Numbered from the stretch's first letter, positions 1 to 52,430 are shown. The stretch: DNA of 64,000 nt from Candidatus Latescibacterota bacterium (GCA_965248435.1 OZ252100.1:5120001-5184000), one strand, 5' to 3'. The notes: generated from the letters alone by a model not told the origin. Numbers and translations are program-made.

Positions 1-10
1 CGAGCGTGGA

Positions 11-1309
11 CTACAACACGAGACGGTCGAACGACTTGACGAAGACCAGAAAGTCCAGGAAGTCGACGCGACCGCTGTTGTCGAAGTCGAAGGCCGGAGC
101 GCTGCCGTTGAATGCAAGGGTAAAGGCGATGAAATCCAGAAAGTCGACCTTCCCGCTGTTGTCGAAATCGGTCCGCGGATCGGCGAATATCTGGACGCCG
201 GTTCCGGATATCGGGAGTTCGATGACCTCTCGCTCGGGATCGTTAGTGAAGATGCTGAGCGTACCCTGAAACTCACCTTCTGCGCCGGGTGAAACCGCGA
301 CCTTGAGGTCATAAGATGCACCGGCCTGTATTTCAAAGGAAGATTCCGACGGGGTAACGTTCTCCAGGTCCGATTCCACACCGGTGACGACCAGCTTGCC
401 CTCACCCGAATTCGTGATCCTGACGGTCCTTCGCATCGTGCGGCCCACCTCCGAATCCCCGAAGTCGACCCGGTCGACCGCGAGTTCGATCGCAGGGGGC
501 AGGGCGACGACCGCTATGGCCGGGATCGTGATCTCGAGGCTGGGCTGGTCGGTGTCGTTACTCGTCAGCGTCAGGCGGCCGGAGAGACTTCCATCCCGAA
601 CCGGCATCAACGTGATCTGAATCGTACCGGTTTCGCCCGGTTCGACCGTCAGTTCGGTAACGTCGACGGAGATCTCGTCCAGGTCCGAGCTGATTCCACT
701 GATGTCCAGCGTTCCGGTCCCGGTGTTCACGATATCGAGAGAGAGGGTACGTGAATCTCCGGGCTGGATCTCCGGCCCGAAGTCGAGCGTGTCGGCCGCC
801 TGGATCATGGGGGTCGAGATCAGCTGCTGAATGACTTCGGCGGCCTTTTGCCGGTCGAACCTTCCCGAGCCGCTCTTGTGCCGGACGACACCCTCCCGGT
901 CCACGACCAGCATCGCGTCGACCGAGCCGGCGGCGTTGACGCCGAGGGCGGTCACCCTTGAGGCCTGGAGGAGCAGTGGAAAGGAGACACCGGTCGTGTT
1001 TTCAAAGGCGTTTACCCCGGCCAGGCTGCCGTCCCACATGTCCAGCCCCAGGACCTGAACACCCTGATCTTCGAAGACCTGCCAGATTTCTGTTTCAATG
1101 GACGGACCCGTCCCGAAGCAGACACTTCAGTTGAATCCGAAGAAGTAGAGGACGAGCACGCCGTTTCTGAAATCGGTCGGAGCGTAATTCCTCCCATCGT
1201 GGCCGAGCAGCGAAAAATCAGGCAGTGCATCGCCCACGTTCAAGGCCTTGGCCTCGAGCGGCAGGGCAAGAAGACCCAGGATCAACCAAACCTTCGGTAC
1301 TCGTTCCAT
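11..1309 (-). CDS. Exported AhpC/TSA-like redoxin, probable selenoprotein (UxxC), with two Ig-like (choice-of-anchor D/HYDIN-type) domains and a C-terminal paired EF-hand/dockerin-like tail
   Basis: ORFs 1127..1330 and 11..1039 are in frame across TGA 1127-1129, reading YFFGFN-U-SVCFGTGP, which aligns to YFFGFR-C-PVCYGTGP of the neighbouring paralog. Signal peptide; DFDNSGKVDFLDF-type motif twice at the C-terminus. Confidence 0.85.
1100..1113 (-). promoter_or_regulatory. Putative bacterial SECIS hairpin (GGACG-GGTC-CGTCC)
   Basis: Hairpin begins 13 nt 3' of the in-frame TGA; identical sequence and spacing at 2916-2929. Confidence 0.7.
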
Positions 1310-1373
1310 TCCTTGCGCTCCTATGATCACTCCCGGCTGTTCGATTGCGGATTTCGGATTGCAGATTGCGGAT

Positions 1374-2078
1374 TCAGTTCAAGGGCTGGCCGAACGAGGA
1401 AGCGAAGACCAGGAAATCGCCGAAATCGACGCGGCCGCTGGCGTCCAGGTCGTAGGCCGTTTCATCGGTGTCGTAGGCCTGAGCGAAAAGGACGAAATCC
1501 AGGAAGTCGACGCCGCCGCTCTGGTCAAAATCGGCCCGCGGATCGGCGAGGGCGGAGTCGCTGTCCAAAAGTCCGGAGATGACGTTGGCCGCCCTTCTGA
1601 CATCCTCAGGCTGGGAAGTGCTGATGTGACGGATCACTCCCCCCTGGTCGATGACCATCAACGCGTCGATCTGACCCACAATATTCACCTCGAACCTGTT
1701 CACAGCCGTTTGGGCGGTCCCATTCAACAGCAACGGAAATGTCGTGCCGGTGATCCTGCTGAAATTCAAAACTCCGGACTCACTCCCGTTCCACATCTCG
1801 ATGCCGAGCACCTGAAGGTCACGGTCTTTGAAGGCCTGCCATATTTCACGCTCGACGAACGGGCCCGTTCCATAACATACGGGACAGCGGAATCCGAAGA
1901 AATAGAGGACGAGGACCCTCCCGCTGAAGTCGTCAGATTCATACGTCCCTCCTCCGAGCGCGTCCAGGGCGAAACCGGGCGCCTGATCGCCGACGTTGAT
2001 CGCGGAGATCAGGGTGGGCAGTGAAAGGGATGCAGCGAGGACCCAAAGAATAAGATAAGCTGACGGCCGTCTTTTCAT
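1374..2078 (-). CDS. Exported AhpC/TSA-like redoxin (CxxC paralog) with paired EF-hand/dockerin-like tail
   Basis: Signal peptide, VGDQAPGF motif, CPVC, two DFD/DLD-xSGxVDF repeats. Confidence 0.85.
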   Translation of the reverse strand: MKRRPSAYLILWVLAASLSLPTLISAINVGDQAPGFALDALGGGTYESDDFSGRVLVLYFFGFRCPVCYGTGPFVEREIWQAFKDRDLQVLGIEMWNGSESGVLNFSRITGTTFPLLLNGTAQTAVNRFEVNIVGQIDALMVIDQGGVIRHISTSQPEDVRRAANVISGLLDSDSALADPRADFDQSGGVDFLDFVLFAQAYDTDETAYDLDASGRVDFGDFLVFASSFGQPLN

Positions 2079-2105
2079 CCAGGTCTGTGCCTCGGATCAA
2101 ACGTT

Positions 2106-3125
2106 TCAGCCCAGAGGCCTGTTGAAGGATGTGGCAAAGATGATGAGATCTCCGAAATCGACCCGGCCGCTGGCGTCCAGGTCGAACGCCGGGTCCGTGG
2201 TGTCGAAGGCCTGCGAGAAGCGGACGAAGTCCAGGAAATCGACCTCGCCGCTCCCGTCAAAGTCGGTTCGGGGATCGGCGAAGCGGACGACCGTCTCTCC
2301 GGAGAAGGGGATCATCAGCTCAGGCGTGGCAGGGTCGTTGCTCAAGACGCTCAACGTCCCGGAGAAGGGCCCCTCCTCGGCCGGCGTTACCGTGACGTTG
2401 ATCTCGTGACTCTCTCCGGGGGGGATACTTATCCCTGAGATGTTTGTCGTGATCTCAGACAGGTCGGACCGGACCCCCGTGATATCGAGAGGGGCCGTGC
2501 CAGAGTTGATGACTTCCAAAGTGAAGGTCCTGGATACGCCCGACTCGAGTTGCGAGCCGAGGGTCAGGGCGTTAACGCGCGTCTCAATCGCGGGCTTGTC
2601 GAGAAGCTCCGTAATGGTTTTCGCCGCGACGTCTATCGATTCCCCCGCGAAACGGATGATGCCCTGCTGGTCCGCGACGATGATGTCATCGATGCGACGC
2701 AAAACGCCACTGTAATCGGTCGCGTAGAGGTAGTTTTCGAGGGGCATACCATTCGCATCGAAATTCGTCCTGCTGGCGGCGCGCAGTAGAAGCGGAAAGG
2801 TCACGCCCGTGATCGCCCTGAAGTTGTCCACGCCCGTCGCGCTCCCGTTCCAGATGTCCAGGCCGAGAACCTGCACGCCCTGGTCCTCGAACGCCTTCCA
2901 TAGTTCTTTTTCGATGGACGGACCCGTCCCGTAGCAGATCGTTCAGTCGAAGCCGAAGTGATACAGGACGATGACCTTACCCTCGAAGTCCGCCGACCTG
3001 TAGGTGTCGCCAATGCCGTCATGCAGGGCAAAGGGGGTAAGCGGTCTTCCCACCTCGGCCGTCACGCTGGCAAAGCCGAGGCACAGGAGGACCGCTGTCA
3101 GGGCCGGTTTGGCAAGCTTGAACAA
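2106..3125 (-). CDS. Exported AhpC/TSA-like redoxin, probable selenoprotein (UxxC), one Ig-like domain and EF-hand/dockerin-like tail
   Basis: ORFs 2943..3125 and 2106..2876 are in frame across TGA 2943-2945, reading HFGFD-U-TICYGTGP. AAGGAG RBS before the TTG start. Confidence 0.85.
2916..2929 (-). promoter_or_regulatory. Putative bacterial SECIS hairpin
   Basis: GGACGGGTCCGTCC 13 nt after the TGA, identical to 1100-1113. Confidence 0.7.
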
Positions 3126-3164
3126 TTCTGTTCTGGCTCCTTCCCTCTTGAGGCTCGGCGTACA

Positions 3165-4712
3165 TCAGAAATGAGTGGTCAGCCGCATCTCCATCCCGCG
3201 GAACGGGAGCACCTGATAGCACGTCCCGGAGGTGCACGCCGTGCCTCCGCGACGTTTCCCCGCGAACAGGATGGCGTCGTGTCGTCCGAAAAACTGCGCG
3301 TTCAGATTTATCCCCCACCACGTCACCGGGTCGGTCTCGCGCTCGAAGGTCTCAGGCCTGTCCACTTCCACAGGGTCGGAGGACCGGTCTGTTTGTAAGG
3401 CCGCGCCGAAGCCTGCAGGGTGCTGCCAGGAGAGGGAGGCGTAGGTTTCCGTAAAAAGGGCAGACCCTTCGGGAGGATGAGCTGCCCGCTGCAGCTGGAA
3501 ATCGAATTCAAATCGGTGATCTGTCGGCGTGGAGGTGCCCAGGGTAAACCCCCCGACCCGTCGCCTTGAAATGCCTCGCAGCTCATCCTTGCCCCAGTCG
3601 AAAAAGGCGGTCGCGGTGAACTCGGGATAGAATCTATCGAAGTCCATCTCCAGGTATTGCTCTTCGAAGTCCCTGCTGATGTCGGCGATGTCGTTGCGCC
3701 CCCGGCTCAAGTTGGCCGTAAACGTGGCGAGCCCGGGCTGGTTGTAGGTCGCCTCTATCTGGTAGCCCCTTTCGTTCTGCGGGAAGAGGACGTGTGTGGC
3801 CCGGTTGAGCAGGTATGCGCTATGTTCTCTGACCAGGGACGGCGGATCGTTGACCTGCGAAGAGAGAAGATCGTCGGTCCTGAGTGAAAATCCGTCATAG
3901 TCCTTGTACTCGAAGCCGAATCCCAATCGGGTTCCGCCGAGGTCTCCGGACAGGTAGAAAGCCCGACCCTCTTCTTCCACTCCGGCCCGGTTGGCGATCT
4001 CTCCGTACAGACTCGCGTAAATGTCCTGAATCCCGGAGCGCTCGATCAGGGGGGTCAGTTCGATGCTCCCGATGCCCGACCAGACCCAGTTCGAATCCAG
4101 ACGCCCCGGATCGAGTGCGACCCACGTCCCGCCTACCCTCAGAGGATCCAGGAGCCGGACAGAGAGTTCGCCGCCCGCGACCCAGTCCTGTCTCCGATCC
4201 AGCCCCGATATGTCCGGTGGGACATCCGCCCTCACGGGTCGCCCCACGAGGGCCTTCGCCTCCGCCCGATTGCCGATCCAGGAGACTATTCCCCCTTCCA
4301 GGTCCTGGGAGGGGGTGTAGCGCCTGCGAAAATTGTTGTCTTCGAGGATGACGCCCGGAAGCTCGAAGGCCCTGAGGGTGAGTCCGCGGCCAAGGATGGC
4401 GTAGTAATTACCTGCCACGACCTCGGCGGAACCCAACGTCCAGCGCGCATATTTTTGGGACAGGTTGAGGATGCGTCGATCCTCGCCCAGGGCCTCGAAG
4501 ATTTCGGCGCGGAGTCCGACCTGGATCCTGCTGCTCGGGGCATACTCGAGATTGAACTGCTCGTAGACGGTCGAGATGTCCTCGGCATCCGAACCCGGCA
4601 CCTTGCCCCGCTGCACCTCCGTGACGCTGGACAGGACCACCTGGGCGCCCGCCTTCGCGAAAGAGAGCAGCAGGCCCAGGACCATCAGGCTACATTTCAG
4701 CACGATCAACAT
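3165..4712 (-). CDS. Outer-membrane beta-barrel-like protein, DUF6029-like
   Basis: Signal peptide, amphipathic beta strands, GNYYAILGRGLTLR motif, C-terminal GGTACTSGTC..PFRG..F; adjacent to TlpA as usual for this family. Confidence 0.7.
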   Translation of the reverse strand: MLIVLKCSLMVLGLLLSFAKAGAQVVLSSVTEVQRGKVPGSDAEDISTVYEQFNLEYAPSSRIQVGLRAEIFEALGEDRRILNLSQKYARWTLGSAEVVAGNYYAILGRGLTLRAFELPGVILEDNNFRRRYTPSQDLEGGIVSWIGNRAEAKALVGRPVRADVPPDISGLDRRQDWVAGGELSVRLLDPLRVGGTWVALDPGRLDSNWVWSGIGSIELTPLIERSGIQDIYASLYGEIANRAGVEEEGRAFYLSGDLGGTRLGFGFEYKDYDGFSLRTDDLLSSQVNDPPSLVREHSAYLLNRATHVLFPQNERGYQIEATYNQPGLATFTANLSRGRNDIADISRDFEEQYLEMDFDRFYPEFTATAFFDWGKDELRGISRRRVGGFTLGTSTPTDHRFEFDFQLQRAAHPPEGSALFTETYASLSWQHPAGFGAALQTDRSSDPVEVDRPETFERETDPVTWWGINLNAQFFGRHDAILFAGKRRGGTACTSGTCYQVLPFRGMEMRLTTHF

Positions 4713-5256
4713 CAGGTGGCTCTTCGGTCTCCTGCTCAGCGGGGAGCGCGGCCTCGATTGCGTTGAGCAGGTCCTTGTGTTGACTGGGCCTGAATCCGGA
4801 TAAACGAAGCAGGATTTCCCCGTCGGGGGCGACCAAAAGCGTGGCAGGCAGGGAAGTCACCTGGAACCGGCGCATGACCCCGCCATCGCTGTCGATCACG
4901 ACCGGAATGGTGATCTTTCTCGCCCTGATGAACGGTTTTACTTTCGTCCGACTGCGCGGTCCGTCTTCGTTGACCCCGAGTACGGTGAGACCGCGATCCT
5001 TGAAGCGTTCGTGGAGCCCCACCAGTTTCGGCATCGCCTTGAGACAGGGTTTGCACCAGGTTGCCCAAAAATCGATCAGGACGGGTCCGTTCTTCCGCAG
5101 TGCGGACAGCCTGATCTGTTTCCCCTCCGGAGTTGGGAGGCTGAAGTCGGGCGCCTGGGTCCCGGAGGTGGGTTGCGGCAGCAGCAGCCCGCATAGCACC
5201 AACAGGACCACGGGGGTGCCCCATTTTTGTGTGGACTTCAATTCTGAGGTACACAT
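4690..5256 (-). CDS. TlpA/ResA-family thiol-disulfide oxidoreductase
   Basis: APDFSL...DFWATWCKPC; N-terminal hydrophobic segment; start uncertain. Confidence 0.9.
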   Translation of the reverse strand: MCTSELKSTQKWGTPVVLLVLCGLLLPQPTSGTQAPDFSLPTPEGKQIRLSALRKNGPVLIDFWATWCKPCLKAMPKLVGLHERFKDRGLTVLGVNEDGPRSRTKVKPFIRARKITIPVVIDSDGGVMRRFQVTSLPATLLVAPDGEILLRLSGFRPSQHKDLLNAIEAALPAEQETEEPPDVDRAEM

Positions 5257-5608
5257 AAGGGCCTCCGGTCTCCGATGTCCCACAGGTTGGCTAAGTCTTT
5301 AAATGTCAAAATAAACAACGTGTTCTCTAATATATGTAAAGCGAGCTCCCCTGACAATATCCGAGGCGGGCGCAAATCTGCCCGTCAGGAATCGGGATTA
5401 GAAAATAGCCAAATGCGTGCCGCGATTCGAGTTTCGCTGCATGGCATTTATTTACAGTGGGATATAGCTGATTGTCAGGTTTTACGGATGGCCAGGGTCG
5501 GCCCGTGTGGTCGCAGGTGGGCTGCACGGTCTCACGATGACGTAAGAGGACCTACCTTTTAAAAGACGGGATGCAGCCGAGGGGTGGCGCTTTGGGTGTA
5601 GACCCTGA

Positions 5609-6618: not shown

Positions 6619-6987
6619 ATGGCTGAAGCCGAGCAATTCACAGATCCGACAGGCAGAGCCTGGGTCGCCGTACCTGCCCCGGACTATGTCGACGGTCAGC
6701 GCGGACAGAGGCTCCTGGAAGTCTGCCTCCAGCTTATGGAAAAGGGCGTGAACCACGTTGCGCTGAATCTCGAACAGACGCGCGTGGTAAACAGCGTGGG
6801 CGTGTCGCGGCTGATCGAGCTTGTGGAGGCCTTCGCCAAGCAGTCCGGAACCTCGGTCGCTTTCTGCACGTCGAATCCGGTTATTTCCAAGACCTTTCGT
6901 ATTATGGGGCTTGCGCAAAAGGCGTCGCTTCTGGACAGTGTCGCGACGCTCAAAAACATGGGCCCCGGGCCTCAGGAGGATGTTTGA
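6619..6987 (+). CDS. STAS anti-anti-sigma factor
   Basis: LNLEQTRVVNSVGVSRLIE with phosphoacceptor Ser; paralog of 10337..10687. Confidence 0.85.
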   Translation: MAEAEQFTDPTGRAWVAVPAPDYVDGQRGQRLLEVCLQLMEKGVNHVALNLEQTRVVNSVGVSRLIELVEAFAKQSGTSVAFCTSNPVISKTFRIMGLAQKASLLDSVATLKNMGPGPQEDV

Positions 6988-6989
6988 GG

Positions 6990-7841
6990 ATGAACGAGAG
7001 GCCTCAGCTGTTCGCGGTGGGGGTACCCCTCCCCGAACTGGAGACCATCCGTTCGAATCTGCCTGCGCTGGAGTTGACTTCGGCCGATGACGCCGCCAGT
7101 GCGGCGGAGACCCTCCGCAAGCGGGAACATCATTACGGGGTGGTCCTGCTTGACCCCCAGGCCCTGGGGGAGGGCGTCGATGCATTTGTGGCATACCTCC
7201 GCGGCTCCTTCGCCGACGTTTCTCTCGCTGCGCTGGGACAAATTCCTGAAGAGGAACGGAAGCGACTCAAACTGTTGGGGGTGTCACATTTTTTTGAGAC
7301 TCCGCTCAACGAAGAATCGGTGGAGCTTTTGTCGCAGATCTCATCCGAACCGAGGAGAAGGCGTGGGACCATGACCGACTGGTCCGTCACGATCGACAAG
7401 AGTAATTGGATCGAAGTCACCGTGCCCAGCAAGGAAGACTACGTATCGAGGATACAGCAGCTGATCGACGTGCTCGAGCAGAGCCGGTTGGATCAGGACA
7501 CGCGCGACGAACTACAGCTTGCAGTGGATGAGCTCGTTCGAAACGCGATCGAGTGGGGCAACCGCCGCGACGCGGAAAAGCAAGTGCGTATCAGCTATTA
7601 CTGTGCGGAGGACCGGGTGATTCTGAAAGTGGAGGATGAGGGTGAAGGGTTCAACGCCGCGGCATTGAGAGATCCGACCGAAGATCTGGAAAAGCATATG
7701 GCAGATCGCGCCGCCGCAGGAAAACGCATGGGGGGGCTGGGTCTTCATTTGATTCGTAATCTGATGGATGAGGTGATTCACAACGACTCCGGAAACGTGG
7801 TGATGTTGACGAAGTATCTGGACCAGGGAAAAAGATCTTAA
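6990..7841 (+). CDS. Degenerate receiver-like domain + RsbW-type HATPase (anti-sigma Ser kinase)
   Basis: LAVDELVRNAIEWGN, VEDEGEGF, GGLGLHLIRNLMDEV. Confidence 0.85.
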   Translation: MNERPQLFAVGVPLPELETIRSNLPALELTSADDAASAAETLRKREHHYGVVLLDPQALGEGVDAFVAYLRGSFADVSLAALGQIPEEERKRLKLLGVSHFFETPLNEESVELLSQISSEPRRRRGTMTDWSVTIDKSNWIEVTVPSKEDYVSRIQQLIDVLEQSRLDQDTRDELQLAVDELVRNAIEWGNRRDAEKQVRISYYCAEDRVILKVEDEGEGFNAAALRDPTEDLEKHMADRAAAGKRMGGLGLHLIRNLMDEVIHNDSGNVVMLTKYLDQGKRS

Positions 7842-7844
7842 CGT

Positions 7845-10321
7845 ATGGATGCCCCTGCGGTGTCTCCGGAAGACCGGACCGACAGACTGCTCTACAGCAT
7901 GAGTTCCCTCTACGAGATGGGCGACCTGATCGCATCGGAAGCGGATATCGAAGAGGTCGCCGAGACGGCTTTGCGGGGCATCATGGGGGCGGTCGCTGTT
8001 TCGTCGGGGGCGCTGCTTATCGACGATGCCAAAGACGGGTGTCTCCGGACCTCGGCGGTCCGGGGGGTTAAGGTGGGTCTGTCCCCGGTTTCGATCGACG
8101 CGTCTGCTCGATCGTTTTTGGCTCGGAAGAAGCGCCCGATCCTTTTCGAGGCGGGCGAATGGCCGAGTGAGCTCAACTGCTGCCGCGAGTCGCTGATGCG
8201 CCTGAACCCTCGCGTCTGGATTCCACTCGTTTTTCGAAACGAGGTCCAGGGGATCCTGAGTCTCGGCGAAAAGTTCCTGGGGGTCGACTACTCGAAGATG
8301 ACGTCCAGCTCCTGTGGACGACGGGGCGACACCTTTCCATCGGCCTCTACAATCAGCGGCTGATTTCCGAGATTCGAAACGCAACATTTCAAGTGAACCG
8401 AAAGGTCGTGGAGCTCGAAACCCTCTACGACGCCGGACTGGCCTTAGGGTCTTCCCTTCAGGTAAAGGAAGTCATCGAGGAGGTGCTGCTGCTGTCGGTC
8501 GGCATCGTGGATGCCCGGGGCGGCTGTTTGATTCTGAAAGACGAACAAACCGGGCGATTTGGGCTCGAGCATTCTGTAGGACTCACGTCCGAGGCGTGTG
8601 AGGTGATGGGTGAGACTTCCTTCCGCCGCAAGATCGCCAGGATGATCAGCTCCAGGAAACCGCTCGAGCCTAGCTCGAAAGATTTCTCGCGTGAGCCGGA
8701 TTTCGAGTTTGCGCTTGCCGCTCCCGTCGGCGAAGTAGGCGGAATCGTTGTCGTCGACAAAGAGACACACGAAGGCATTCAGGCGTTCACGGAAGCGGAC
8801 GCCCATCTTCTGGAACTGATGGGCCAGCAGGCCGGGGCCGCGATCGCGAATGCGCGGCTCTACAAGAGTATGGTGGAGGTCAAGAACTACCAGCAGAACG
8901 TTCTTACAAGCATCGGCAATGGTGTGATTTCAACCGACCTGAAGGGCCGGATCGTGCAGGTGAATCCGTCTGTCAGGAGGATCTTTGGAATCGAAGAGAG
9001 TCTGCGCGGCAAGTCGTGCGCACGGTTTTTTCAAAGGAGCGGATGCAGAGAGATCGCACAGGCCGTAGCGGCCTCTCTAAAGGATGGTGAAGACCGAACG
9101 GTCGTCGGCGAGAACGTCCAGGAACGGGAGATCGCGCTGGACGCCAGCATCACGAGCCTCAGGAACGAACAGGATGAAGTCCAGGGCCTGGTGATCGCGC
9201 TCGAGGATCTGAGCCGAGAGACCCGGATGCGGACGATGTTCAAACAGTATGCGAGCGATCAGGTCGTGGACCTGCTCCTTGCCGACAACAACAGGCCGGT
9301 TCTGGGCGGGGAAATACGGGACGTCACCATCCTCTTCGTGGATGTGCGCGGGTCGACCGCGCTGCTGAGCCGGATCGGCCCGGAAGAGATGGTGCTGCTT
9401 CTCAACGAATGCTTTTCCCGTTTGAACGAGATCATCTTCGGATACAACGGCACGTTCGATAAGTATACAGGCGACGGTTTCATGGTGGTCTATGGCGCAC
9501 CGGTCGCGTTTCCTGACGACAGCGAGCGCGCCGTGATGTCGGCCCTGGCCATGCACCAGGAGATGGAGCGGTTCAATCGGGATCGAGGCGACGCACTCGG
9601 GCTTGGCTACGGGATTACTCGTGGAAAGGTGCTGGCCGGGAACATCGGCTCGATTCGGCGAATGGAGTACACGGTCATCGGACCGGCCGTCGGACTTTCG
9701 GCACGTCTCTGTGACGCGGCCCGCGGCGGAGAGATCTGGACCGGTCCGGAGATACACGCGGAGTTGAAGGACCGTTTTGACTTCGAATCCCGCGGGATTC
9801 AGAGGTTTAAGGGTCTGGATCCGACACACGTCTACGAGGTTTTCGGACCCCGGGGTACGCGTCGGCGCCCGACCAGGAAAGGAGGTGGGAAGATGGTGGA
9901 ACGCAGATCCAAGGCAGAGCCCAAAATAGATCTGACGATCCCCATGATTCCGGACATGGAGCTTGCGGCCAGCAAGACGGCGGAGGGGGTCGGCGAGTTT
10001 ATGGGGTTGGACCAGAATAAGGTCGAAGAAGTGAAAATGGCTTTGATCGAGGCGTGCATCAATGCCTTCGAACACAGCCAGAGCAAGGACCGCCGTGTCT
10101 TCCTGGATTTCGATGTGGGAAACGATGCACTCACGATACGGATTTCTGACCGGGGTCAGGGATTCGATCCGGAGCGTGCACAGGAAATTGCGATCGAGCG
10201 GAGGGAGCGGCACGAGAGCCGCCGCGGGTGGGGGTTGAAGATCATAGAAGAGTTGATGGACGAAGTGGACATCAAATCCGACGAGAACGGTACGGTCATT
10301 ACCATGGTGAAGCGTCACTGA
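7845..10321 (+). CDS. GAF-GAF-PAS-class III cyclase-RsbW HATPase multidomain protein, split by an apparent 1-nt frameshift near 8293
   Basis: ...GVDYS continues in the second frame as EDDVQLLWTTGRHLSIGLYNQRL into ORF 8393..10321. Cyclase motifs TILFVDVRGST, DKYTGDG; kinase motifs IEACINAFEHS, SDRGQGF, RGWGLKII. Confidence 0.8.
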
Positions 10322-10336
10322 GGACAGGAGTCGGCA

Positions 10337-10687
10337 ATGTCAGAGAGTCTGCAGGTACGGGTTCGGCGGGAGGGAGAGATCGGGGTCCTCGAGACCGACG
10401 GCTACATCAATAATCTTGGGGCCGAAAAGGTCGCGGAAATGTGCGAAGGGTTGATTCAGGAGGGCGTCAAGGACTTCGTGATCAACCTCGAGAAGTCGCG
10501 GATCATCAACAGCATCGGGATCTCGATCCTGATCGAGGTCATCGAGAAGGTCAGGGGCCTGGAGGGAAACGTCGCGTTTTGCTGTGTGACGCCCACCATC
10601 GCGAAGACGTTCAAGATTATGGGGCTTCTGAAGGCGTCGAGCATCCACGATGACGAGAGCGCGGCGGTTGCCGCCTTGGCCGGGTGA
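10337..10687 (+). CDS. STAS anti-anti-sigma factor (RsbV/SpoIIAA-like)
   Basis: INLEKSRIINSIGISILIE. Confidence 0.9.
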   Translation: MSESLQVRVRREGEIGVLETDGYINNLGAEKVAEMCEGLIQEGVKDFVINLEKSRIINSIGISILIEVIEKVRGLEGNVAFCCVTPTIAKTFKIMGLLKASSIHDDESAAVAALAG

Positions 10688-10740
10688 GTTGAAGATCGGG
10701 TACCGGGGTTCGGGTACCGGGTACCGGAACTGTGGATCGT

Positions 10741-10878
10741 GTAGAGACGCCCCGGTGGCGGTAGAGACGCCCCGCTGGGGCGTCTCTATGCCGACGCAGA
10801 TACATTGCCAGGGTGGGCGGCGACCGGTGTCTGCATCGGCCGGGGTGGGATCGTTGGAAAACGCGCGGGAGAATCACC
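10741..10878. repeat. REP/REPIN-like element (GTAG-AGACGCCCC..GGGGCGTCTCT family)
   Basis: GTAG-led palindrome plus conserved flank shared with 14380-14486, 17481-17563 and 33534-33620. Confidence 0.75.
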
Positions 10879-10890
10879 TATAATTAATGT

Positions 10891-10925
10891 AAAGGCCCCG
10901 AGGCCAGCCCCCGGGGCCTTTCTGT
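10891..10925. terminator. Probable bidirectional intrinsic terminator
   Basis: AAAGGCCCCG...CGGGGCCTTT hairpin between convergent genes. Confidence 0.6.
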
Positions 10926-10926
10926 T

Positions 10927-13900
10927 TTATGATCGGCGACGCTTTGTCTTGTCCATCCGGACCACGACGCAGGTGATGTCGTCGGCCTGAGGCGCCGCTC
11001 CTCGGAACGCGTCCATCCGTTTCATGATGAAGTCTATGGTTTCCGACGCCGACAGGTCCTCTTTACACGCAGATCGGATCGTTTCCATCGTGGCTTCGAA
11101 CCCGAATTGATCTCCCGCTCCGTTTTCGGCTTCCGGGATGCCGTCCGAATAGAAGACGAGCCGATCTCCATCCTGGAGTTTGGCCTCTACAACAGGAAAC
11201 TCGGTGTCGGGCCGAACGCCGAGCGGGTAGGCGTCCATCACGATCTCTCTCAACTCTCCGGATGATGCGCTGAAATGGGTGGGATATGGACATCCCCCGT
11301 TCGTGAGCCGCACATCTCCGGTGGACAGATTCAGCTCGCCGATTTCGAGACAGATGAACGTCTCCTTCGGGAGCATTCTGCATAGGGCCCGGTTGAGGCG
11401 GTCGAAAACCTCTTCCAGGGTCCCGCCCATTCTCATGTGCGTATCGAGCATCCCGCTGAACATGAGCATGGGCACCGCCGCTTCCATGGCGTGACCCGTG
11501 ACATCGGCCATCACCCCGGCCACGCGACTCTTCGAAAGCGCAAAGTACTGGAAGAAGTCTCCGCCGACGTGATTCGCCGGCACGCAGCGGCCGGCGATGT
11601 CGAACCCTTTGATGCGAAGACTTTCCCTGGCCATCAGGCTCTTCTGCAGGTCGTGGGCGGTCTGGAGTTCATCTTCCGCCTCCGCGATGAGCCTTCGGTC
11701 GCGACGGATCACCCGAACGGTCTGCCAGATCGTCAAGGCGATGAAGAGACTCAGCGCAGAGATCCAGCCGATTCGTTCATAGGGCAGATGCACGTGGAGT
11801 AGAACGGTGGCCGGTGTCTCGGAGTAGACCATGTCCCGGTCGACGGCCTGCACTTCGAACGTATACGAGCCCACGGGAAGATCCTGAACCTCCCAGCGAC
11901 GATCCCGAGTCGTCTTCCAGTCGTCGTCATAGCCCTTGAGGCGGTGTCTGTATACCATGGCGTCCGGCCGGGTCTTGAAGCTCATCCCGTGGAACTCGAA
12001 GCCAACGACTCCGACCGTGGATGGGATCGAAAGTTCGTCCTCGCGTTCGTAGCGGTGGTCGGCCACGACGGCATCGATAACGATCGGCGGGCGGAGCGGG
12101 GCGGGCGAGCGAAACCGCGTTACGCCCTTGTTGGTCCCGATCCAGATGTCGCCGTCCCTGCTCTCCAGAATTCCGCCTCCACTTACGTAGTTGCCCGCCA
12201 GTCCATCGTCGCTGGTCAAGGTCTGAAAGACGTCCCCGTCAAACCGGCTTAAGCCCCCGCCAGAAGTGCCGAACCAGAGATGCCCGTTCCGATCCTTTAG
12301 AATATGGGTCACCTCGTTGGACGCCAATCCGTCCTTTGTCGTGAACGTGGTCCACGCCTGCTCGGGACTTGATCCGGGGTCGAACCGGCTCACCCCTCCC
12401 CCGAACGTGCCAAACCAGATCTCCCCCTCGGGACCTTCCAGCATCGCGAGCACCTCATCTTGAGCCAGCCCGTCTTCTATCGTGAACGTCTCCCAACCCT
12501 TGCACTCCGAAGAAGGATCGTATCGGCTCGCTCCGCGCTTTGTGCCGAACCAGAGATGTCCATCCCGGTCCTGGATTATGGACGATCGAACGGCATTGTC
12601 CGCCAGCCCGTCATCCGTGGTAAAGGTAGCCCAGGTCTGGCCATCGAAGCGGCTGGCACCCCCATCCGTGGCGAACCAGATGTGCCCGACCCGATCCTGG
12701 AAAATCGCGTGTACGTCATCGTTCCCCAGCCCGTCTTTTGTCGTGAAAGTGGTCCACGTCTTCCCATCGTAGTGACTCACTCCGCCCCTCTGCGTGCCGA
12801 ACCAGAAGACTCCGTCCCGATCCTGGAGGATCGAAGACACCCGTTGTCCCACGAGCCCGTCTTCTGCGGTGAAGGTGGTCCACGACTGCCCCGCCTGCCC
12901 TGAGCCCCGTCGAAGGGGACTCGATCCGGAGTCAAACCGGCTCACTCCGCCGGGCGTGCCGAACCAGAGATGCCCGTCCCGGTCCTGGTGGACCGATTCC
13001 ACACGGTCGTTCACCAGCCCGTCTTCTGTCGTGAAGGTGATCCACGTTCGACCGCCATACCGGCTCAGTCCAGTGTAGGTGCCGACCCAAAGGTCACCCT
13101 CCCGATCCTGAAGGAGTGAGATGACGGTGTCGTCAGGCAGGCCGTCTTCTGTGGTGAAGGTGGTCCAGGCAGCCTGTCCCGGGCTTGACCCGGGATCATA
13201 CCTGCTCACGCCGCCCGAGGTGCCGAACCAGGGGTGTCCTTCTCGGTCCTGGAGGAGCGAAGTCACGTGATTGTGCGCCAGCCCGTCTTCTGTGGTAAAG
13301 GTGGTCCAGGCTTGCCCCGGACTCGATCCGGGGCCTGTCCCGCCTGCCCTGAGCTCTGTCGAAGGGGCCTCCGAGCCGGGATCATACCGACTCACACCCC
13401 CCCACGTGCCGAACCAGAAGGCTCCCTCCTGATCCTGGAAGATTGAGGACACATCATTGTGTGCCAGCCCATCTTTTGTGGTGAAGGTGACCCATGACTT
13501 CCCCGGACCTGATCCGGGGTCGTATCGGCTCACACCGTCGTTGGTTCCAAACCATAGATTGCCCTCTCGATCCTGGAGGATCGACCCCACGCTGTCGTTC
13601 GCCAGGCCATCTTCTGTGGTGAGGGTGGTCCACGAGTCGCCATCGTACCGGCTCACGCCGGCGGAGGTGCCGAACCAGAAATGCCCCTCCCGATCCTGAA
13701 GGATCCGTGCCGATCGGTCGTGCGCCAGGCCATCTTCTGTGGTGAACGTGGTCCACGCCACCTGTCCCGAGCCCGGTCCCTGCGTACGCAGGGAGGGATC
13801 GTACCGGCTCACGCCAGAAAAGGTGCCAAACCAGAAACGACCTTCCCGATCCTGGAAGATCGATCTCACCCTGTTGTCGGCGAGACCGTCTTCCGTGTCG

Positions 13901-14151
13901 AGCGTCGTAAAGGTCTGTCCGTCATAGCGAATGACGCCGCTGGCCCTGCTGCAGAGCCAGAGGACGCCATCGCGATCCTGATAGATGCACGGAATAAAGC
14001 CGCTGACGAGGCCGTCGGTGACGTCGTAGGTCCGCCACACGCCCTTCATGGAAGGGGGTGACGAGGCTTGCTGGCCCGTCGACTCGAGAGGGAAAGCGAG
14101 GAATAGGGTGAGGGCTAAGATGTGAAGAACGGGGGTGAGGCGTCTGCGCAT
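10927..14151 (-). CDS. Membrane sensor: beta-propeller repeats + Y_Y_Y domain + TM + SpoIIE/RsbU PP2C phosphatase
   Basis: About 14 WTTFTTEDGL..QDREG..WFGT..GVSRYD repeats; VGGDFF, ADVTGH, FYSDGI, ADDIT motifs. Confidence 0.92.
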   Translation of the reverse strand: MRRRLTPVLHILALTLFLAFPLESTGQQASSPPSMKGVWRTYDVTDGLVSGFIPCIYQDRDGVLWLCSRASGVIRYDGQTFTTLDTEDGLADNRVRSIFQDREGRFWFGTFSGVSRYDPSLRTQGPGSGQVAWTTFTTEDGLAHDRSARILQDREGHFWFGTSAGVSRYDGDSWTTLTTEDGLANDSVGSILQDREGNLWFGTNDGVSRYDPGSGPGKSWVTFTTKDGLAHNDVSSIFQDQEGAFWFGTWGGVSRYDPGSEAPSTELRAGGTGPGSSPGQAWTTFTTEDGLAHNHVTSLLQDREGHPWFGTSGGVSRYDPGSSPGQAAWTTFTTEDGLPDDTVISLLQDREGDLWVGTYTGLSRYGGRTWITFTTEDGLVNDRVESVHQDRDGHLWFGTPGGVSRFDSGSSPLRRGSGQAGQSWTTFTAEDGLVGQRVSSILQDRDGVFWFGTQRGGVSHYDGKTWTTFTTKDGLGNDDVHAIFQDRVGHIWFATDGGASRFDGQTWATFTTDDGLADNAVRSSIIQDRDGHLWFGTKRGASRYDPSSECKGWETFTIEDGLAQDEVLAMLEGPEGEIWFGTFGGGVSRFDPGSSPEQAWTTFTTKDGLASNEVTHILKDRNGHLWFGTSGGGLSRFDGDVFQTLTSDDGLAGNYVSGGGILESRDGDIWIGTNKGVTRFRSPAPLRPPIVIDAVVADHRYEREDELSIPSTVGVVGFEFHGMSFKTRPDAMVYRHRLKGYDDDWKTTRDRRWEVQDLPVGSYTFEVQAVDRDMVYSETPATVLLHVHLPYERIGWISALSLFIALTIWQTVRVIRRDRRLIAEAEDELQTAHDLQKSLMARESLRIKGFDIAGRCVPANHVGGDFFQYFALSKSRVAGVMADVTGHAMEAAVPMLMFSGMLDTHMRMGGTLEEVFDRLNRALCRMLPKETFICLEIGELNLSTGDVRLTNGGCPYPTHFSASSGELREIVMDAYPLGVRPDTEFPVVEAKLQDGDRLVFYSDGIPEAENGAGDQFGFEATMETIRSACKEDLSASETIDFIMKRMDAFRGAAPQADDITCVVVRMDKTKRRRS

Positions 14152-14379
14152 AGGCGAGCACCAACACGAAAGGGGCACACTGAAGACCCGACGTATGCCC
14201 CTTTTTAAATCCCTCGGTTTGAGAGGCCCCGACCCTCAAACAGGATTTGCTGTCAACATCTTATGCTGCAATAAGATCTGCAATGGCAAAATAGGCCACG
14301 GCACCGTAAAAGACAAGGGAAATCACGAAAGGGATCACGAAATGCGCGAAGGAGCACGAAAACGCACGAAACCCTACGG

Positions 14380-19867: not shown

Positions 19868-20340
19868 GCCATATCCCCTTGTGTGTGACGACGATCCTTC
19901 GTGGCGCTAGCAGTCTCTATCAAGCAATTGACGTACCCCTCGGCTTGCTAGGCGGTCCGTGTGCTTACCGATACGGGTGACACGGTTGTGAGAGGGATGA
20001 AACTCACCGGCGAGGAGAGCGCCTGTCATAAAAGGGATGCGGTATGGATCTTTCACTCTTACAGATTCAAACGAAAGGCTTTTTCACCTTCAAGTGAGCG
20101 GCAGGTTGCATTACACGACGTGCCGGGGTGTCTATCAAGGGGAACGAGTGCACTTCTTTTCAACAGTTAATTAGACTTCTGGGGAACAAATACAGACCAC
20201 AGAAGGAGGTTCAAGAGCCGGCGGTACGGTGATTGCAGGAATAGTTCTCGAGTTATCTGCAGTGGAAGTGAAGAGGGTGACGCATTCGAGGAGGTGATCG
20301 TGTAGGTAGCACGGTCAATAAGGCGTGGGGAGATGCAGTT

Positions 20341-20955
20341 GTGGACTACGAAGATGACTATCTGATTCTAAACTTGACCCCCTATTTCAATAGTGATGGA
20401 ATTTCTTCCGATGAAGACCGTGCCGACGGATTCTTTACGGCTAACGGATATACCTATGCGGAAGAAGATTTGCCAGCGTCGAATTCGATCCTGGAATGCG
20501 ATGACGTTGTGTTCCGATTTCCTGACAAAAGCGCAGGCCGAGATAATAACATCTCCTTAGAGGGCCAGAAAATTCCGGTTCCTGAGGATCTGTACGACAC
20601 GGTCTACTTCCTTGGCGCGGCTGAAGAGATCAGTTTACGAGAAAACATTCAGTTCGTTTTTTCAGACGGTGGGCGGGAGGAGGCTTTGTTAGGACTAAGC
20701 GGGTGGGGGCTGGGGCGCGAACTCGAATACGGAGAGCGCGCGGCGATTCAATGCGAGGGATACCATATCGTGCGCCCCGTGTCCTACCATCGCTATACGG
20801 ACACCCTCGGTCTTGATCACGGTATTTGGATGCAGAGCGTGTCCATCTCAGACAGACCGTTGGTTGGGATTGAGCTTCCGGATCTTCCGCCGATGCACAT
20901 TTTTGCAATGACACTTCACCGTACAGAGATCGGAAAGTTCCAGAGGAAACAGTGA
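20341..20955 (+). CDS. Uncharacterised acidic beta-sandwich-like protein
   Basis: 204 aa; DNNISLEGQKIPVP..YFLGAA motif recalls accessory beta-sandwich modules of some glycoside hydrolases; overlaps the next gene by 4 nt. Confidence 0.55.
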   Translation: MDYEDDYLILNLTPYFNSDGISSDEDRADGFFTANGYTYAEEDLPASNSILECDDVVFRFPDKSAGRDNNISLEGQKIPVPEDLYDTVYFLGAAEEISLRENIQFVFSDGGREEALLGLSGWGLGRELEYGERAAIQCEGYHIVRPVSYHRYTDTLGLDHGIWMQSVSISDRPLVGIELPDLPPMHIFAMTLHRTEIGKFQRKQ

Positions 20956-21956: not shown

Positions 21957-22125
21957 GTTTCCCCGCATTTTGAGACAGCTATAGTACTTGGGTACACGAT
22001 CTTTAGAATGTTTCGTGGGAACAAAGCATGCTTTCAACGGCAGGTTCACTGGATGTTTAAAACCCCCAGATCTGCCCGAAAGCCATAAGCGTATGATGGT
22101 ATGATCAAGAAAGGAGGTGATCAAT

Positions 22126-22350
22126 ATGCCGAAGATGAAACCGAAGCTCATCAAACCCCGGAGACGTGATTGCTCAAATGCGGTAGATGCGTATCTGAGC
22201 GAGTCTCAGCAGTGTATGTTAGGTGCCGCAGCATTGGGCACAGCTACGGCTTTAATGGTAGTTATGACTGGAGGGGCCGGCCTTGCCGTTTTCCTTGCTG
22301 CAAATGCGATAGGCGGCCTTGCGCAGGTATCCTATGTTGTTGCCTGCTAG
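22126..22350 (+). CDS. 74-aa candidate RiPP/bacteriocin precursor
   Basis: Strong RBS AAGGAGGTGA; basic leader KPKLIKPRRR; Gly/Ala-rich hydrophobic core; Cys16, Cys30 and terminal Cys74. Confidence 0.7.
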   Translation: MPKMKPKLIKPRRRDCSNAVDAYLSESQQCMLGAAALGTATALMVVMTGGAGLAVFLAANAIGGLAQVSYVVAC

Positions 22351-22582
22351 GATTCCAGAAATCGGTTGCGAATAGCTTTTCGGTTGTAGATCTGGGGGGA
22401 TTAACTTGCGTTTCTCGGAAATTCGTGACATGTATGGAAAGGCTCGTCCAAAAAAAATAGAGAATGGGCCCGATCGGCTTCGAAGAAGTAAGAAGTGCGA
22501 CATCGGAATGAATGTTCGTCCCAAGGAGCCTTCTTATCGCTTGTCAACAGTCATCCAGAACTGACGATGGAAGCGTCGTACG

Positions 22583-24879: not shown

Positions 24880-24916
24880 GAATCCATTCGCTTGTTGGAA
24901 TGCCATAACCAATCTA

Positions 24917-26404: not shown

Positions 26405-26499
26405 ACCAGATCCCTCCGGAATACTATTCATCCAACGAGATACGCTTCACGAGATACGAGATATGATTTGGATAACGCGCAGAACTGCGGAAGGGCGGG

Positions 26500-52418: not shown

Positions 52419-52430
52419 CAGAGGTCGGCC

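What the first reader, a model, noticed from the sequence alone, without database searches (positions are those of the whole stretch)
11..5256. Exported selenoprotein redoxin array coupled to a DUF6029-like barrel and TlpA
Seen: three tandem paralogous redoxins with signal peptides and paired EF-hand/dockerin-like tails. Two have an in-frame TGA exactly where the third has the first Cys of CxxC (N-U-SVC, D-U-TIC versus R-C-PVC), so the ORF caller splits them. They are co-oriented with TlpA and a barrel carrying a C-terminal CxxxxC. Inference: a TlpA to barrel to surface-anchored Sec/Cys redoxin electron relay, with 0, 1 or 2 Ig spacers setting reach. Exported selenoproteins with such anchors are little characterised.
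Basis: partly seen in the sequence, partly recalled or inferred. Interest (0 to 1): 0.8.

Follow-up and report, generated by a model that had tools for sequence, protein, structure and literature searches.

The report
Exported dockerin-tailed selenoprotein redoxin operon
Two of three neighbouring genes for exported thiol-reducing enzymes almost certainly place the rare amino acid selenocysteine in their active site, a known trick in a new domain arrangement, but nothing yet supports the proposed electron relay through the neighbouring outer-membrane barrel.

Summary
On the minus strand lie five tightly packed genes: a TlpA/ResA-like redoxin (4690-5283), a DUF6029 outer-membrane barrel (3165-4712), and three paralogous redoxins, C (2106-3125), B (1374-2078) and A (11-1309). 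A and C each carry one in-frame TGA (1127-1129 and 2943-2945) exactly where B has the first Cys of CxxC.

The selenocysteine reading is well supported. One AhpC/TSA domain spans each TGA. An identical hairpin follows both TGAs and fits the bacterial SECIS model. TGA is the commonest ordinary stop in the window. Diverged orthologue fragments stop at the same residue, and their downstream halves stay intact.

The tail folds as a dockerin. The spacers are choice-of-anchor D Ig domains (0, 1 or 2). Most relatives are Cys forms, and two that were tested carry type IX secretion sorting domains.

The barrel's CxxxxC is a family-wide hallmark (115 of 120 homologues), so it is no evidence for a relay.

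UxxC redoxin selenoproteins and exported selenoproteins are already known. This is a new architecture of a known kind, of moderate interest.

The parts
5329..5357 (-). Promoter-like site (TTGTCA-17-TATATT) upstream of the first gene
   Evidence: Consensus scan, 10 of 12 matches. The scan found 2 sites in 6.6 kb against 1.4 expected, so this is weak on its own.
4690..5283 (-). TlpA/ResA-like thiol:disulfide oxidoreductase with an N-terminal hydrophobic segment and a WCKPC motif. An alternative ATG start lies at 5256.
   Evidence: Pfam AhpC-TSA 94.2 bits and Redoxin 67.3 bits. NCBIfam ResA subfamily 101.8 bits, below its 170 cut-off. It overlaps the barrel gene by 23 nt.
3165..4712 (-). DUF6029 outer-membrane beta-barrel with a signal peptide and a C-terminal ...THF
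   Evidence: Pfam PF19494 64.4 bits. 171 homologues found. AF2 model pLDDT 90.5, pTM 0.86, about 24 strands. Best PDB fold matches are usher pores FimD/PapC, TMq 0.45-0.54.
3219..3236 (-). Codons of Cys493...Cys498 (CTSGTC) in the barrel
   Evidence: The motif is present in 115 of 120 listed homologues. C493 and C498 are invariant in the 68-sequence alignment. They lie in a small hairpin, strands 490-494 and 497-501, before the last strand.
2106..3125 (-). Redoxin C: signal peptide, TlpA-like redoxin with D-U-TIC, one choice-of-anchor D Ig domain, dockerin tail
   Evidence: The database splits it into a 60-aa piece (P0158) and a 256-aa ORF.
2943..2945 (-). In-frame TGA of C, proposed Sec codon
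2910..2933 (-). Hairpin after the TGA of C: GGACG-GGUC-CGUCC (2916-2929) plus a short lower stem
   Evidence: 18 nt after the UGA, 4-nt loop starting GG, 5-bp stem, -7.6 kcal/mol.
2295..2597 (-). Ig-like (choice-of-anchor D / DUF1573) domain of C; coordinates approximate
2109..2285 (-). Dockerin tail of C
   Evidence: NCBIfam dockerin_GC 19.4 bits, below the cut-off of 29.
1374..2078 (-). Redoxin B: signal peptide, redoxin with R-C-PVC, no Ig domain, dockerin tail
   Evidence: best PDB sequence matches 2LS5 and ResA.
1857..1870 (-). Weaker hairpin in B at the place homologous to the A and C hairpins (GAACG-GGCC-CGUUC)
   Evidence: -5.4 kcal/mol, same spacing from the Cys codon at 1884-1886.
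1377..1553 (-). Dockerin tail of B
   Evidence: AF2 pLDDT 95.2. The ten best PDB fold hits are all from cohesin-dockerin entries; the best is 2y3n_B, TM 0.82, E 1.5e-3.
11..1309 (-). Redoxin A: signal peptide, redoxin with N-U-SVC, two Ig domains, dockerin tail. The ATG at 1309 agrees with orthologue starts; a GTG at 1330 is also open.
1127..1129 (-). In-frame TGA of A, proposed Sec codon
1094..1117 (-). Hairpin after the TGA of A: GGACG-GGUC-CGUCC (1100-1113) plus a 4-bp lower stem with an AU bulge
197..805 (-). Two Ig-like (choice-of-anchor D / DUF1573 / ASH) domains of A; coordinates approximate
   Evidence: 2 stretches each
14..190 (-). Dockerin tail of A

Best explanation
A and C are genuine selenoprotein genes. 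B is their cysteine paralogue.

Proposed mechanism (inferred):
- Each A or C mRNA carries a UGA followed, 18 nt later, by a short G-rich-loop hairpin. That hairpin would recruit SelB with Sec-tRNA, so the ribosome inserts selenocysteine as the attacking residue of a UxxC motif in a TlpA/ResA-type thioredoxin fold.
- All three proteins are exported by an N-terminal signal peptide.
- Each carries a C-terminal dockerin that presumably ties it to an unidentified partner in the envelope or at the cell surface. It sits behind 0, 1 or 2 Ig-like choice-of-anchor D domains.
- The selenolate or thiolate attacks an oxidised extracytoplasmic substrate (a disulfide, or a peroxide-, sulfur- or selenium-type oxidant). 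The resolving Cys closes a selenenylsulfide or disulfide.
- A reductant regenerates the site. The co-transcribed periplasmic TlpA-like protein is the obvious candidate.
- The role of the DUF6029 barrel is open. It could be a porin for the substrate, a route or anchor for the redoxins, or simply a neighbour.

Shown by computation: the in-frame TGAs, domain continuity across them, the hairpins, the conserved stops and intact downstream halves in relatives, the dockerin fold, and the barrel fold.

Inferred: Sec insertion, export, docking, the reductive chemistry and recharging by TlpA.
For: 1. Both TGAs align with the first Cys of B's CxxC, and one AhpC-TSA domain spans each.
2. TGA is not reassigned. 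18 of 39 Pfam-backed ORFs in the window end in TGA, including B, C and the barrel.
3. An identical 16-nt stretch GGGACGGGUCCGUCCA follows both TGAs. It has 18 nt spacing, loop GGUC, a 5-bp stem and -7.6 kcal/mol. This meets the four constraints of the bacterial SECIS model quoted in PMC13188914 (passages seen). All 5 codons of the hairpin are identical between A and C, against 62 of 148 identical codons for identical residues overall.
4. Orthologues keep the stop.
   - Five distinct 60-aa variants, about 75% identical to A's N-terminal piece, all end ...FFGFN.
   - P0160, on the 78,313-nt contig of a close relative, ends ...HFGFD.
5. The downstream half stays intact. P0006 is 291/345 identical to A with one gap. 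It shares its contig length (3755 nt) and source with an N-terminal piece and a barrel fragment.
6. Cys forms of the same family are abundant: 146 of the 150 best representatives have CxxC. That is the usual Sec/Cys pattern.
7. UxxC selenoproteins with PF00578 or TlpA-like domains are listed families.
8. The tail is a dockerin by fold.
9. Of the relatives, 2 of 2 tested carry T9SS type A sorting domains. The Ig domain is a 'choice-of-anchor' domain. Both point to an extracytoplasmic or surface location.
Against: - No tRNA-Sec and no SelA/SelB/SelD-like Pfam match among 44 further ORFs in the 64-kb window. The 5.66-Mb source contig could not be read.
- The hairpin is marginal: -7.6 against a threshold of -7.5. 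A simplified version of the model is met by 136 of 2020 TGA triplets in the window, 6.7%.
- The 61-nt folds are no more stable than shuffles: z -1.17 and +0.09.
- The Cys paralogue B has a similar but weaker hairpin at the same place. Part of the pairing may therefore be a by-product of the GTGP codons.
- Orthologues were seen only as predicted proteins. A stop is there, but whether it is TGA is unknown.
- Rfam holds no matching family.
- Location, partner and substrate are untested.
Confidence: 0.75

Rival explanations
1. A and C are pseudogenes. Nonsense mutations (TGY to TGA) killed two of three redundant paralogues, and only B works.
For: - TGY to TGA is a single base change.
- The ORF callers split both genes.
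- No Sec machinery is seen in the window.
- The hairpin alone is weak evidence.
Against: - Two independent hits fall on the one catalytic codon.
- The same stop position is kept in five diverged variants and in a close relative.
- The downstream half is 84% identical over 345 residues with one gap and no break.
- Pfam domains downstream are intact.
- Synonymous sites in the hairpin are identical between A and C.
Confidence: 0.07
2. One reading: electrons pass from periplasmic TlpA through the barrel's CxxxxC to surface-docked Sec/Cys redoxins, and the Ig spacers set their reach.
For: - The five genes are co-oriented and tightly packed, with a 23-nt overlap between TlpA and the barrel.
- The Cys pair sits in a hairpin next to the last strand. 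By strand count this is on the outer face (inference).
- Relatives of the redoxins carry surface-sorting domains.
Against: - The Cys pair is a hallmark of DUF6029 at large: 115 of 120 homologues, invariant in 68 aligned sequences. That includes sequences labelled Latescibacteria, Gemmatimonadota and Eisenbacteria.
- A single disulfide in an outer loop has no evident path to a periplasmic donor across a membrane-spanning barrel.
- No precedent was found. The only work found that mentions DUF6029 links it to Wzi-like polysaccharide porins.
Confidence: 0.05
3. A purely periplasmic system. The three redoxins stay in the periplasm and are reduced directly by TlpA. The barrel is a porin that admits the oxidised substrate, or is functionally unrelated. 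The dockerin binds a periplasmic or outer-membrane-inner-face partner.
For: - The window's three proteins have a signal peptide but no T9SS sorting domain, so no known route across the outer membrane is encoded in them.
- TlpA-family proteins are periplasmic reductants (established knowledge).
- A periplasmic selenoprotein with a signal peptide is documented: MccSep.
Against: - Choice-of-anchor D domains and dockerins are typical of surface or secreted proteins (NCBIfam naming; recalled for dockerins).
- The closest family members are T9SS cargo.
- The barrel is large, about 24 strands, and resembles usher pores in size.
Confidence: 0.3
4. The TGAs are read through as an ordinary amino acid (Cys, Trp or Gly), or the pieces are separate genes.
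For: Near-cognate read-through of UGA exists at low level (established knowledge).
Against: - TGA terminates 18 of 39 supported ORFs, including three genes of this operon.
- The downstream pieces have no signal peptide and begin inside the thioredoxin fold.
- The position is the catalytic residue, where Sec/Cys exchange is the rule (passages).
Confidence: 0.03

Closest known systems
Prx-like thiol:disulfide oxidoreductase and thiol-disulfide isomerase-like (TlpA-like, cd02966) selenoproteins with UxxC, as tabulated in PMC13188914 and PMC9312934 (table passages seen)
   Same: - PF00578 domain, UxxC with Sec as the first residue, and a SECIS hairpin right after the UGA.
- Abundant Cys homologues.
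- Function known only by prediction.
   Different: - Here the redoxin is fused to choice-of-anchor D Ig domains and a dockerin.
- It sits in a Sec/Cys/Sec tandem array beside a DUF6029 barrel.
- Sequence likeness to the listed exemplar accessions was not tested, because they could not be fetched.
ResA / TlpA periplasmic thiol-disulfide oxidoreductases (PDB 1ST9, 3C71 and others) and the uncharacterised 2LS5
   Same: Best sequence matches among solved structures: 2LS5 at E 8.4e-12 and ResA at 3.8e-9. Same fold and same CxxC position.
   Different: - The motif is FGF-x-[U/C]-x-x-C-x-GTGP instead of W-C-x-x-C.
- Scores lie far below the NCBIfam ResA cut-off: 33-44 bits against 170.
- Extra Ig and dockerin modules.
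HBP35 of Porphyromonas gingivalis, a cell-surface T9SS cargo with thioredoxin activity (PMC4674972, passage seen)
   Same: It is a precedent for a thioredoxin-fold protein displayed on the surface of an FCB-group bacterium. The wider family of the window's redoxins carries the same kind of T9SS sorting domain.
   Different: - HBP35 uses Cys and a T9SS C-terminal domain. The window's proteins use Sec or Cys and a dockerin.
- No sequence comparison was made.
MccSep, periplasmic multihaem selenoprotein of Geobacter (PMC13510729, passages seen)
   Same: A selenoprotein split in annotation at a UGA, with a cleaved signal peptide, shown experimentally to lie outside the cytoplasm.
   Different: It is an unrelated fold (cytochrome c) that works as a polysulfide reductase.
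Cellulosomal dockerins (for example 2Y3N chain B)
   Same: Two Ca-loop-plus-helix repeats. Fold match TM 0.82.
   Different: - No cohesin partner is identified.
- The Pfam dockerin model did not match at E <= 0.01.
- The cargo is a redoxin, not a glycoside hydrolase.

Membership tests
Bacterial selenoprotein gene | In-frame UGA aligned with Cys in homologues | tested here: met
   CxxC is present in 146 of 150 representatives.
Bacterial selenoprotein gene | bSECIS hairpin: loop 3-9 nt with G in its first two positions, stem 4-16 bp, 16-37 nt after the UGA, MFE <= -7.5 (criteria from PMC13188914, seen) | tested here: met
   18 nt, loop GGUC, 5 bp, -7.6 kcal/mol. The fit is marginal, and 6.7% of all TGA triplets in the window pass a simplified version of the test.
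Bacterial selenoprotein gene | The stop position and the downstream reading frame are conserved in orthologues | tested here: met
   This is at protein level only, so which stop codon the orthologues use was not seen.
Bacterial selenoprotein gene | selA, selB, selC (tRNA-Sec) and selD present in the genome | not testable with these tools
   None in the window.
Bacterial selenoprotein gene | Selenium in the protein | not testable with these tools
   Needs 75Se labelling or mass spectrometry.
Prx-like / TlpA-like UxxC selenoprotein families | PF00578 (AhpC-TSA) domain above its cut-off, with a UxxC motif | tested here: met
   A 47.6 bits, C 38.3 bits, cut-off 26.
ResA (NCBIfam NF002854) | Score above the curated cut-off of 170 bits | tested here: not met
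   A 39.3, B 43.9, C 32.6 and the TlpA-like gene 101.8 bits. All are TlpA/ResA-like, none is ResA proper.
Dockerin | Duplicated Ca-binding loop plus helix, and the dockerin fold | tested here: met
   Repeats. Model pLDDT 95.2. The top ten PDB hits are all from cohesin-dockerin entries, TMq 0.64-0.82, while EF-hand proteins score TM about 0.3.
Dockerin | Match to a curated dockerin sequence model | tested here: not met
   No Pfam Dockerin hit at E <= 0.01. NCBIfam dockerin_GC gave 19.4 bits for C against a cut-off of 29.
Dockerin | A cohesin partner | not tested
   No cohesin Pfam match among the ORFs scanned. The genome was not available.
T9SS cargo | C-terminal type A or B sorting domain | tested here: not met
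   No TIGR04183 match in A, B or C. It is present in relatives P0014 and P0018.
DUF6029 (PF19494) | Pfam match above the cut-off, a beta-barrel fold, and the C-terminal RRGGxAC-x4-C motif | tested here: met

The most novel reading that the evidence does not exclude
A selenium-based redox module on the outside of the cell. Dockerin-bearing selenocysteine redoxins would cross or plug into the 24-strand DUF6029 barrel and dock at the surface at graded distances. There they would act as an extracellular reductase array, for example on disulfides, polysulfide or elemental sulfur, or selenium or tellurium species. Reducing power would come from the periplasmic TlpA-like protein. This would make DUF6029 a new protein-conducting or protein-anchoring outer-membrane component, and it would be the first cohesin-dockerin-type assembly built around selenoenzymes.
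Probability: 0.1. Interest if true: 0.75.

Novelty: new variant of a known kind. Interest (0 to 1): 0.45.

Why it matters
Standard annotation misses these two genes: the database holds them as 60-aa and 256- or 342-aa pieces. The case therefore adds to the evidence that selenoproteomes of uncultured FCB-group bacteria are under-counted.

The Sec / Cys / Sec tandem array is useful in itself. B is sister to C in the tree and keeps a weakened copy of the hairpin. That makes the array a compact natural system for studying Sec-to-Cys exchange and the decay of a SECIS element.

If the proteins are truly displayed outside the outer membrane, selenol chemistry would be exposed to the environment. That would bear on extracellular sulfur, selenium or metal redox cycling.

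The operon also gives an uncharacterised, widespread barrel family (DUF6029) its first concrete functional neighbourhood to test.

Tried and rejected
1. Complex prediction of the barrel with redoxin B. The result was no verdict, so it says nothing for or against binding.

The tool chose the dockerin tail as its pattern. Of 167 matched stretches, 6 encoded a relative, and all 6 matched only tail residues 157-234. I read only L001, where the module sits on unrelated Latescibacterota proteins. The other matches are to MAGs labelled Latescibacterota, Planctomycetota, Phycisphaerae and Saccharibacteria. No orthologous DNA was obtained, so the Cys/TGA alternation could not be read at nucleotide level.

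4. Rfam scan of 1-5600 at E <= 10: only two chance-level hits, and no bacterial SECIS family.

5. Folding of 61-nt stretches: not more stable than shuffles, so global stability gives no support.

6. Crude screen of the whole window for further in-frame TGA candidates: 101 TGA sites with open frame on both sides. Only the two known ones have a redox-motif context, so there is no further selenoprotein candidate.

7. PDB sequence search with the tail: only sub-significant EF-hand and dockerin hits, best E 0.013. The fold search was needed.

8. Code reassignment of TGA: rejected.

9. Peroxiredoxin proper: rejected. The motif is CxxC/UxxC, and the nearest solved relatives are ResA-type.

10. Literature:
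   - 'selenocysteine' + 'choice-of-anchor': 0 papers.
   - 'selenoprotein' + 'dockerin': 2 papers, unrelated by title (listing only).
   - 'selenoprotein' + 'Latescibacteria': 3 papers (listing only).
   - 'DUF6029': 2 papers (a preprint and its journal version, listed once), and the passages were read.
   - Supplements were not consulted.

Full report
**What is there**

Bases 11-5283 of the minus strand hold five co-oriented genes with short gaps or an overlap.
- A TlpA/ResA-like redoxin at 4690-5283. It has WCKPC, Pfam AhpC-TSA 94 bits and Redoxin 67 bits.
- A DUF6029 protein at 3165-4712, overlapping the first gene by 23 nt. Pfam gives 64.4 bits against a cut-off of 27.
- Three paralogous redoxins that I call C (2106-3125), B (1374-2078) and A (11-1309).

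A sigma-70-like site lies just upstream of the first gene at 5357-5329. No convincing terminator separates the genes. Read by eye, Shine-Dalgarno-like stretches precede C, B and A.

**The observation**

Under table 11, A and C each fall into a 60- to 67-aa piece and a long downstream ORF. With TGA read through, both give one continuous protein.
- A reads ...FFGFN-U-SVCFGTGPS, with the TGA at 1127-1129.
- C reads ...HFGFD-U-TICYGTGPS, with the TGA at 2943-2945.
- B reads ...FFGFR-C-PVCYGTGPF.

In the alignment the two U columns coincide with the first Cys of B's CxxC. One AhpC-TSA domain match runs across each TGA.

The domain architectures are as follows.
- A has two Ig-like domains, C has one and B has none (Pfam DUF1573/ASH/HYDIN-type; NCBIfam 'choice-of-anchor D').
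- All three begin with a signal-peptide-like hydrophobic segment. This was read by eye; no predictor was available.
- All three end in a duplicated DxDxSGxVDFxDF tail.

**Is it selenocysteine?**

Evidence for:
- TGA is not a sense codon in this organism. 18 of 39 Pfam-supported ORFs in the window stop with TGA, including B, C and the barrel.
- Both TGAs are followed by the identical stretch GGGACGGGUCCGUCCA. This forms a 5-bp stem with loop GGUC, 18 nt after the UGA, at -7.6 kcal/mol. In A it is extended by a 4-bp lower stem with a two-base bulge.
- This meets the four constraints of the consensus bacterial SECIS model quoted in the 2026 review PMC13188914. Those are a loop of 3-9 nt with G in its first two positions, a stem of 4-16 bp, 16-37 nt spacing, and MFE <= -7.5 (passages seen).
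- All five hairpin codons are identical between A and C. Across the whole pair, only 62 of 148 identical residues use the same codon.
- Relatives keep the stop.
  - A cluster of five distinct 60-aa proteins, about 75% identical to A's N-terminal piece, all end ...FFGFN.
  - P0160 ends ...HFGFD. It comes from a 78,313-nt contig that also holds a 97%-identical B orthologue and a near-identical phosphoglycerate kinase.
- The downstream half is not decaying. P0006 is 291/345 identical to A with a single gap. It shares its contig length (3755 nt) and source with one of the 60-aa pieces and a barrel fragment.
- Three further relatives (P0005, P0008, P0113) start just after the motif. That fits the same split. 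For the short contigs, however, a contig edge cannot be excluded.

Evidence against, or gaps:
- The window has no tRNA-Sec and no sel gene among 44 other ORFs. The rest of the genome was out of reach.
- The hairpin passes the energy threshold only narrowly. A simplified form of the model is met by 136 of 2020 TGA triplets in the window.
- The 61-nt folds are not unusually stable.
- B has a weaker hairpin (GAACG-GGCC-CGUUC, -5.4 kcal/mol) at the same place.
- The orthologues were seen only as proteins, so their stop codon is not known to be TGA.

Weighing these, I put the Sec reading of A and C at about 0.85. The fuller explanation, which adds an extracytoplasmic location and reductive UxxC chemistry, I put at 0.75.

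**Family and evolution**

An exhaustive HMMER search with B's redoxin domain found 4338 proteins at E <= 1e-3 and 273 at E <= 1e-10. Of the 150 best, 146 carry CxxC, mostly as F-[FL]-G-[YNFH]-x-C-P-x-C...GP. P0111 and P0118 have AxxC, P0113 is N-terminally cut, and P0004 is aberrant.

Typical members are about 260 aa. The two I tested (P0014, P0018) end in a type IX secretion type A sorting domain. A smaller clade carries the dockerin tail instead, and it contains all the split forms.

In a tree of the region after the motif (28 rows, 104 columns):
- the dockerin clade has 88/83 support;
- A groups with P0006 (99/97);
- B groups with C (91/93).

With C and A both Sec, the simplest reading is that B reverted from Sec to Cys after duplication. 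Its weakened hairpin would then be a relic. This is an inference from a short alignment.

The nearest solved structures by sequence are the uncharacterised 2LS5 (E 8.4e-12) and ResA (3.8e-9). All three proteins score far below the NCBIfam ResA cut-off. They are TlpA/ResA-like, not ResA and not peroxiredoxins.

**The tail**

Sequence models give only sub-threshold EF-hand and dockerin_GC hits.

An AlphaFold model of the 59-residue tail, built from 11 aligned sequences, has pLDDT 95.2. Its ten best PDB matches are all chains from cohesin-dockerin entries. The best is 2Y3N chain B at TM 0.82 and E 1.5e-3, and no hit has E <= 1e-3. Calmodulin-type EF-hands reach only TM about 0.3.

So the tail is a dockerin by fold.

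The same module sits at the N-terminus of unrelated proteins of Latescibacterota MAGs. No cohesin was found in the window.

**The barrel**

The last protein search returned 171 homologues. The few that carry a name are labelled Latescibacteria, Gemmatimonadota or Eisenbacteria. The Atlas places the family mainly in Bacteroidota and Ignavibacteriota.

The model (68 sequences, pLDDT 90.5, pTM 0.86) shows about 24 strands. The best PDB matches are the 24-strand usher pores FimD and PapC (TMq 0.45-0.54, E about 2e-9), followed by AlgE, MOMP and TonB-dependent receptors. I take this as likeness in barrel size, not as homology. The only work found on DUF6029 notes an HHpred likeness to the Wzi barrel.

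The Cys pair C493/C498 is invariant in the 68-sequence alignment. It is present in 115 of the 120 listed homologues. The five without it are shorter or have shifted tails. It closes a small hairpin (490-494, 497-501) before the last strand. By strand parity that hairpin should face outward, which is an inference.

It is thus a family hallmark, most simply a structural disulfide. It gives no specific support to an electron relay.

**How it most likely works**

This is inferred.
1. SelB with Sec-tRNA reads the two UGAs at the hairpins.
2. The pre-proteins are exported through the Sec translocon.
3. The UxxC or CxxC site reduces an oxidised extracytoplasmic substrate through a mixed selenenylsulfide or disulfide.
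4. The site is recharged, most plausibly by the co-transcribed TlpA-like protein.
5. The dockerin holds the enzymes on an unknown partner.

Whether they act in the periplasm (no outer-membrane sorting signal in A, B or C) or at the surface (choice-of-anchor domain, dockerin, T9SS-sorted relatives) is open. I give the purely periplasmic variant about 0.3.

**Comparison with what is known**

- UxxC selenoproteins with PF00578 or TlpA-like domains are long-listed predicted families (tables in PMC13188914 and PMC9312934; passages seen).
- The same tables list predicted Sec forms of DsbA-like, DsbG-like, substrate-binding and TonB-dependent receptor proteins.
- MccSep is an experimentally localised periplasmic selenoprotein with a cleaved signal peptide (PMC13510729; passages).
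- A surface-displayed thioredoxin-active T9SS cargo, HBP35, is known (PMC4674972; passage).

What I did not find in print is a selenoprotein with a dockerin or a choice-of-anchor domain. 'Selenocysteine' + 'choice-of-anchor' gave 0 papers. 'Selenoprotein' + 'dockerin' gave 2 papers, unrelated by title. I also found no link between DUF6029 and redoxins. Subscription journals and supplements were not covered.

**Verdict**

The selenoprotein reading is well supported but still lacks the genome-level check. The relay through the barrel is unsupported. This is a new domain architecture and gene arrangement of a known kind of selenoprotein. Interest 0.45.

Noticed in passing
window 3165-4712 compared with protein P0282: The barrel orthologue on the 78,313-nt contig of a close relative is only 272 aa. 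After about residue 217 it follows the alternative frame seen as window ORF 3895-4125(-). This is a frameshift or an assembly error in that relative.
   Followed up: partly
proteins P0004, P0111, P0118: There are variants of the redoxin family without the first Cys or Sec. P0004 reads FGFSEPGC and also has a shifted C-terminus, on a 1727-nt contig. P0111 and P0118 read AxxC. They are either monothiol forms or sequence errors.
   Followed up: no
window 20000-26500: A low-GC island (0.44-0.51 against about 0.59 elsewhere). It holds a BtrH_N/DUF4872 protein, an ABC ATPase, a TPR protein and three ORFs with no Pfam match. It may be horizontally acquired.
   Followed up: no
window 51567-53615 and 62011-62994: Mobile-element genes: a tyrosine recombinase followed by an IS91-type Y2 transposase, and an IS30-like HTH_38/rve transposase.
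   Followed up: no
window 6984-14178: A cluster of partner-switching-type regulators lies right next to the operon. It includes an HATPase_c_2 kinase, a GAF-PAS-cyclase-HATPase_c_2 protein, and a 1083-aa Reg_prop/Y_Y_Y-SpoIIE phosphatase. Any link to the redoxin operon is untested.
   Followed up: no
L001:2199-3356 and L001:5090-7684: In a Latescibacterota MAG the same dockerin module sits at the N-terminus, after a signal peptide, of two unrelated large proteins. The module is therefore a portable tag in this group of bacteria.
   Followed up: partly
window 1310-1373: The B-A intergenic spacer contains a short repeated AATCCG/CAATC-like motif, read by eye.
   Followed up: no
window 40737-42534: Two adjacent PhyH-family ORFs. 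The second matches only the C-terminal half of the profile. It may be a truncated or split gene.
   Followed up: no
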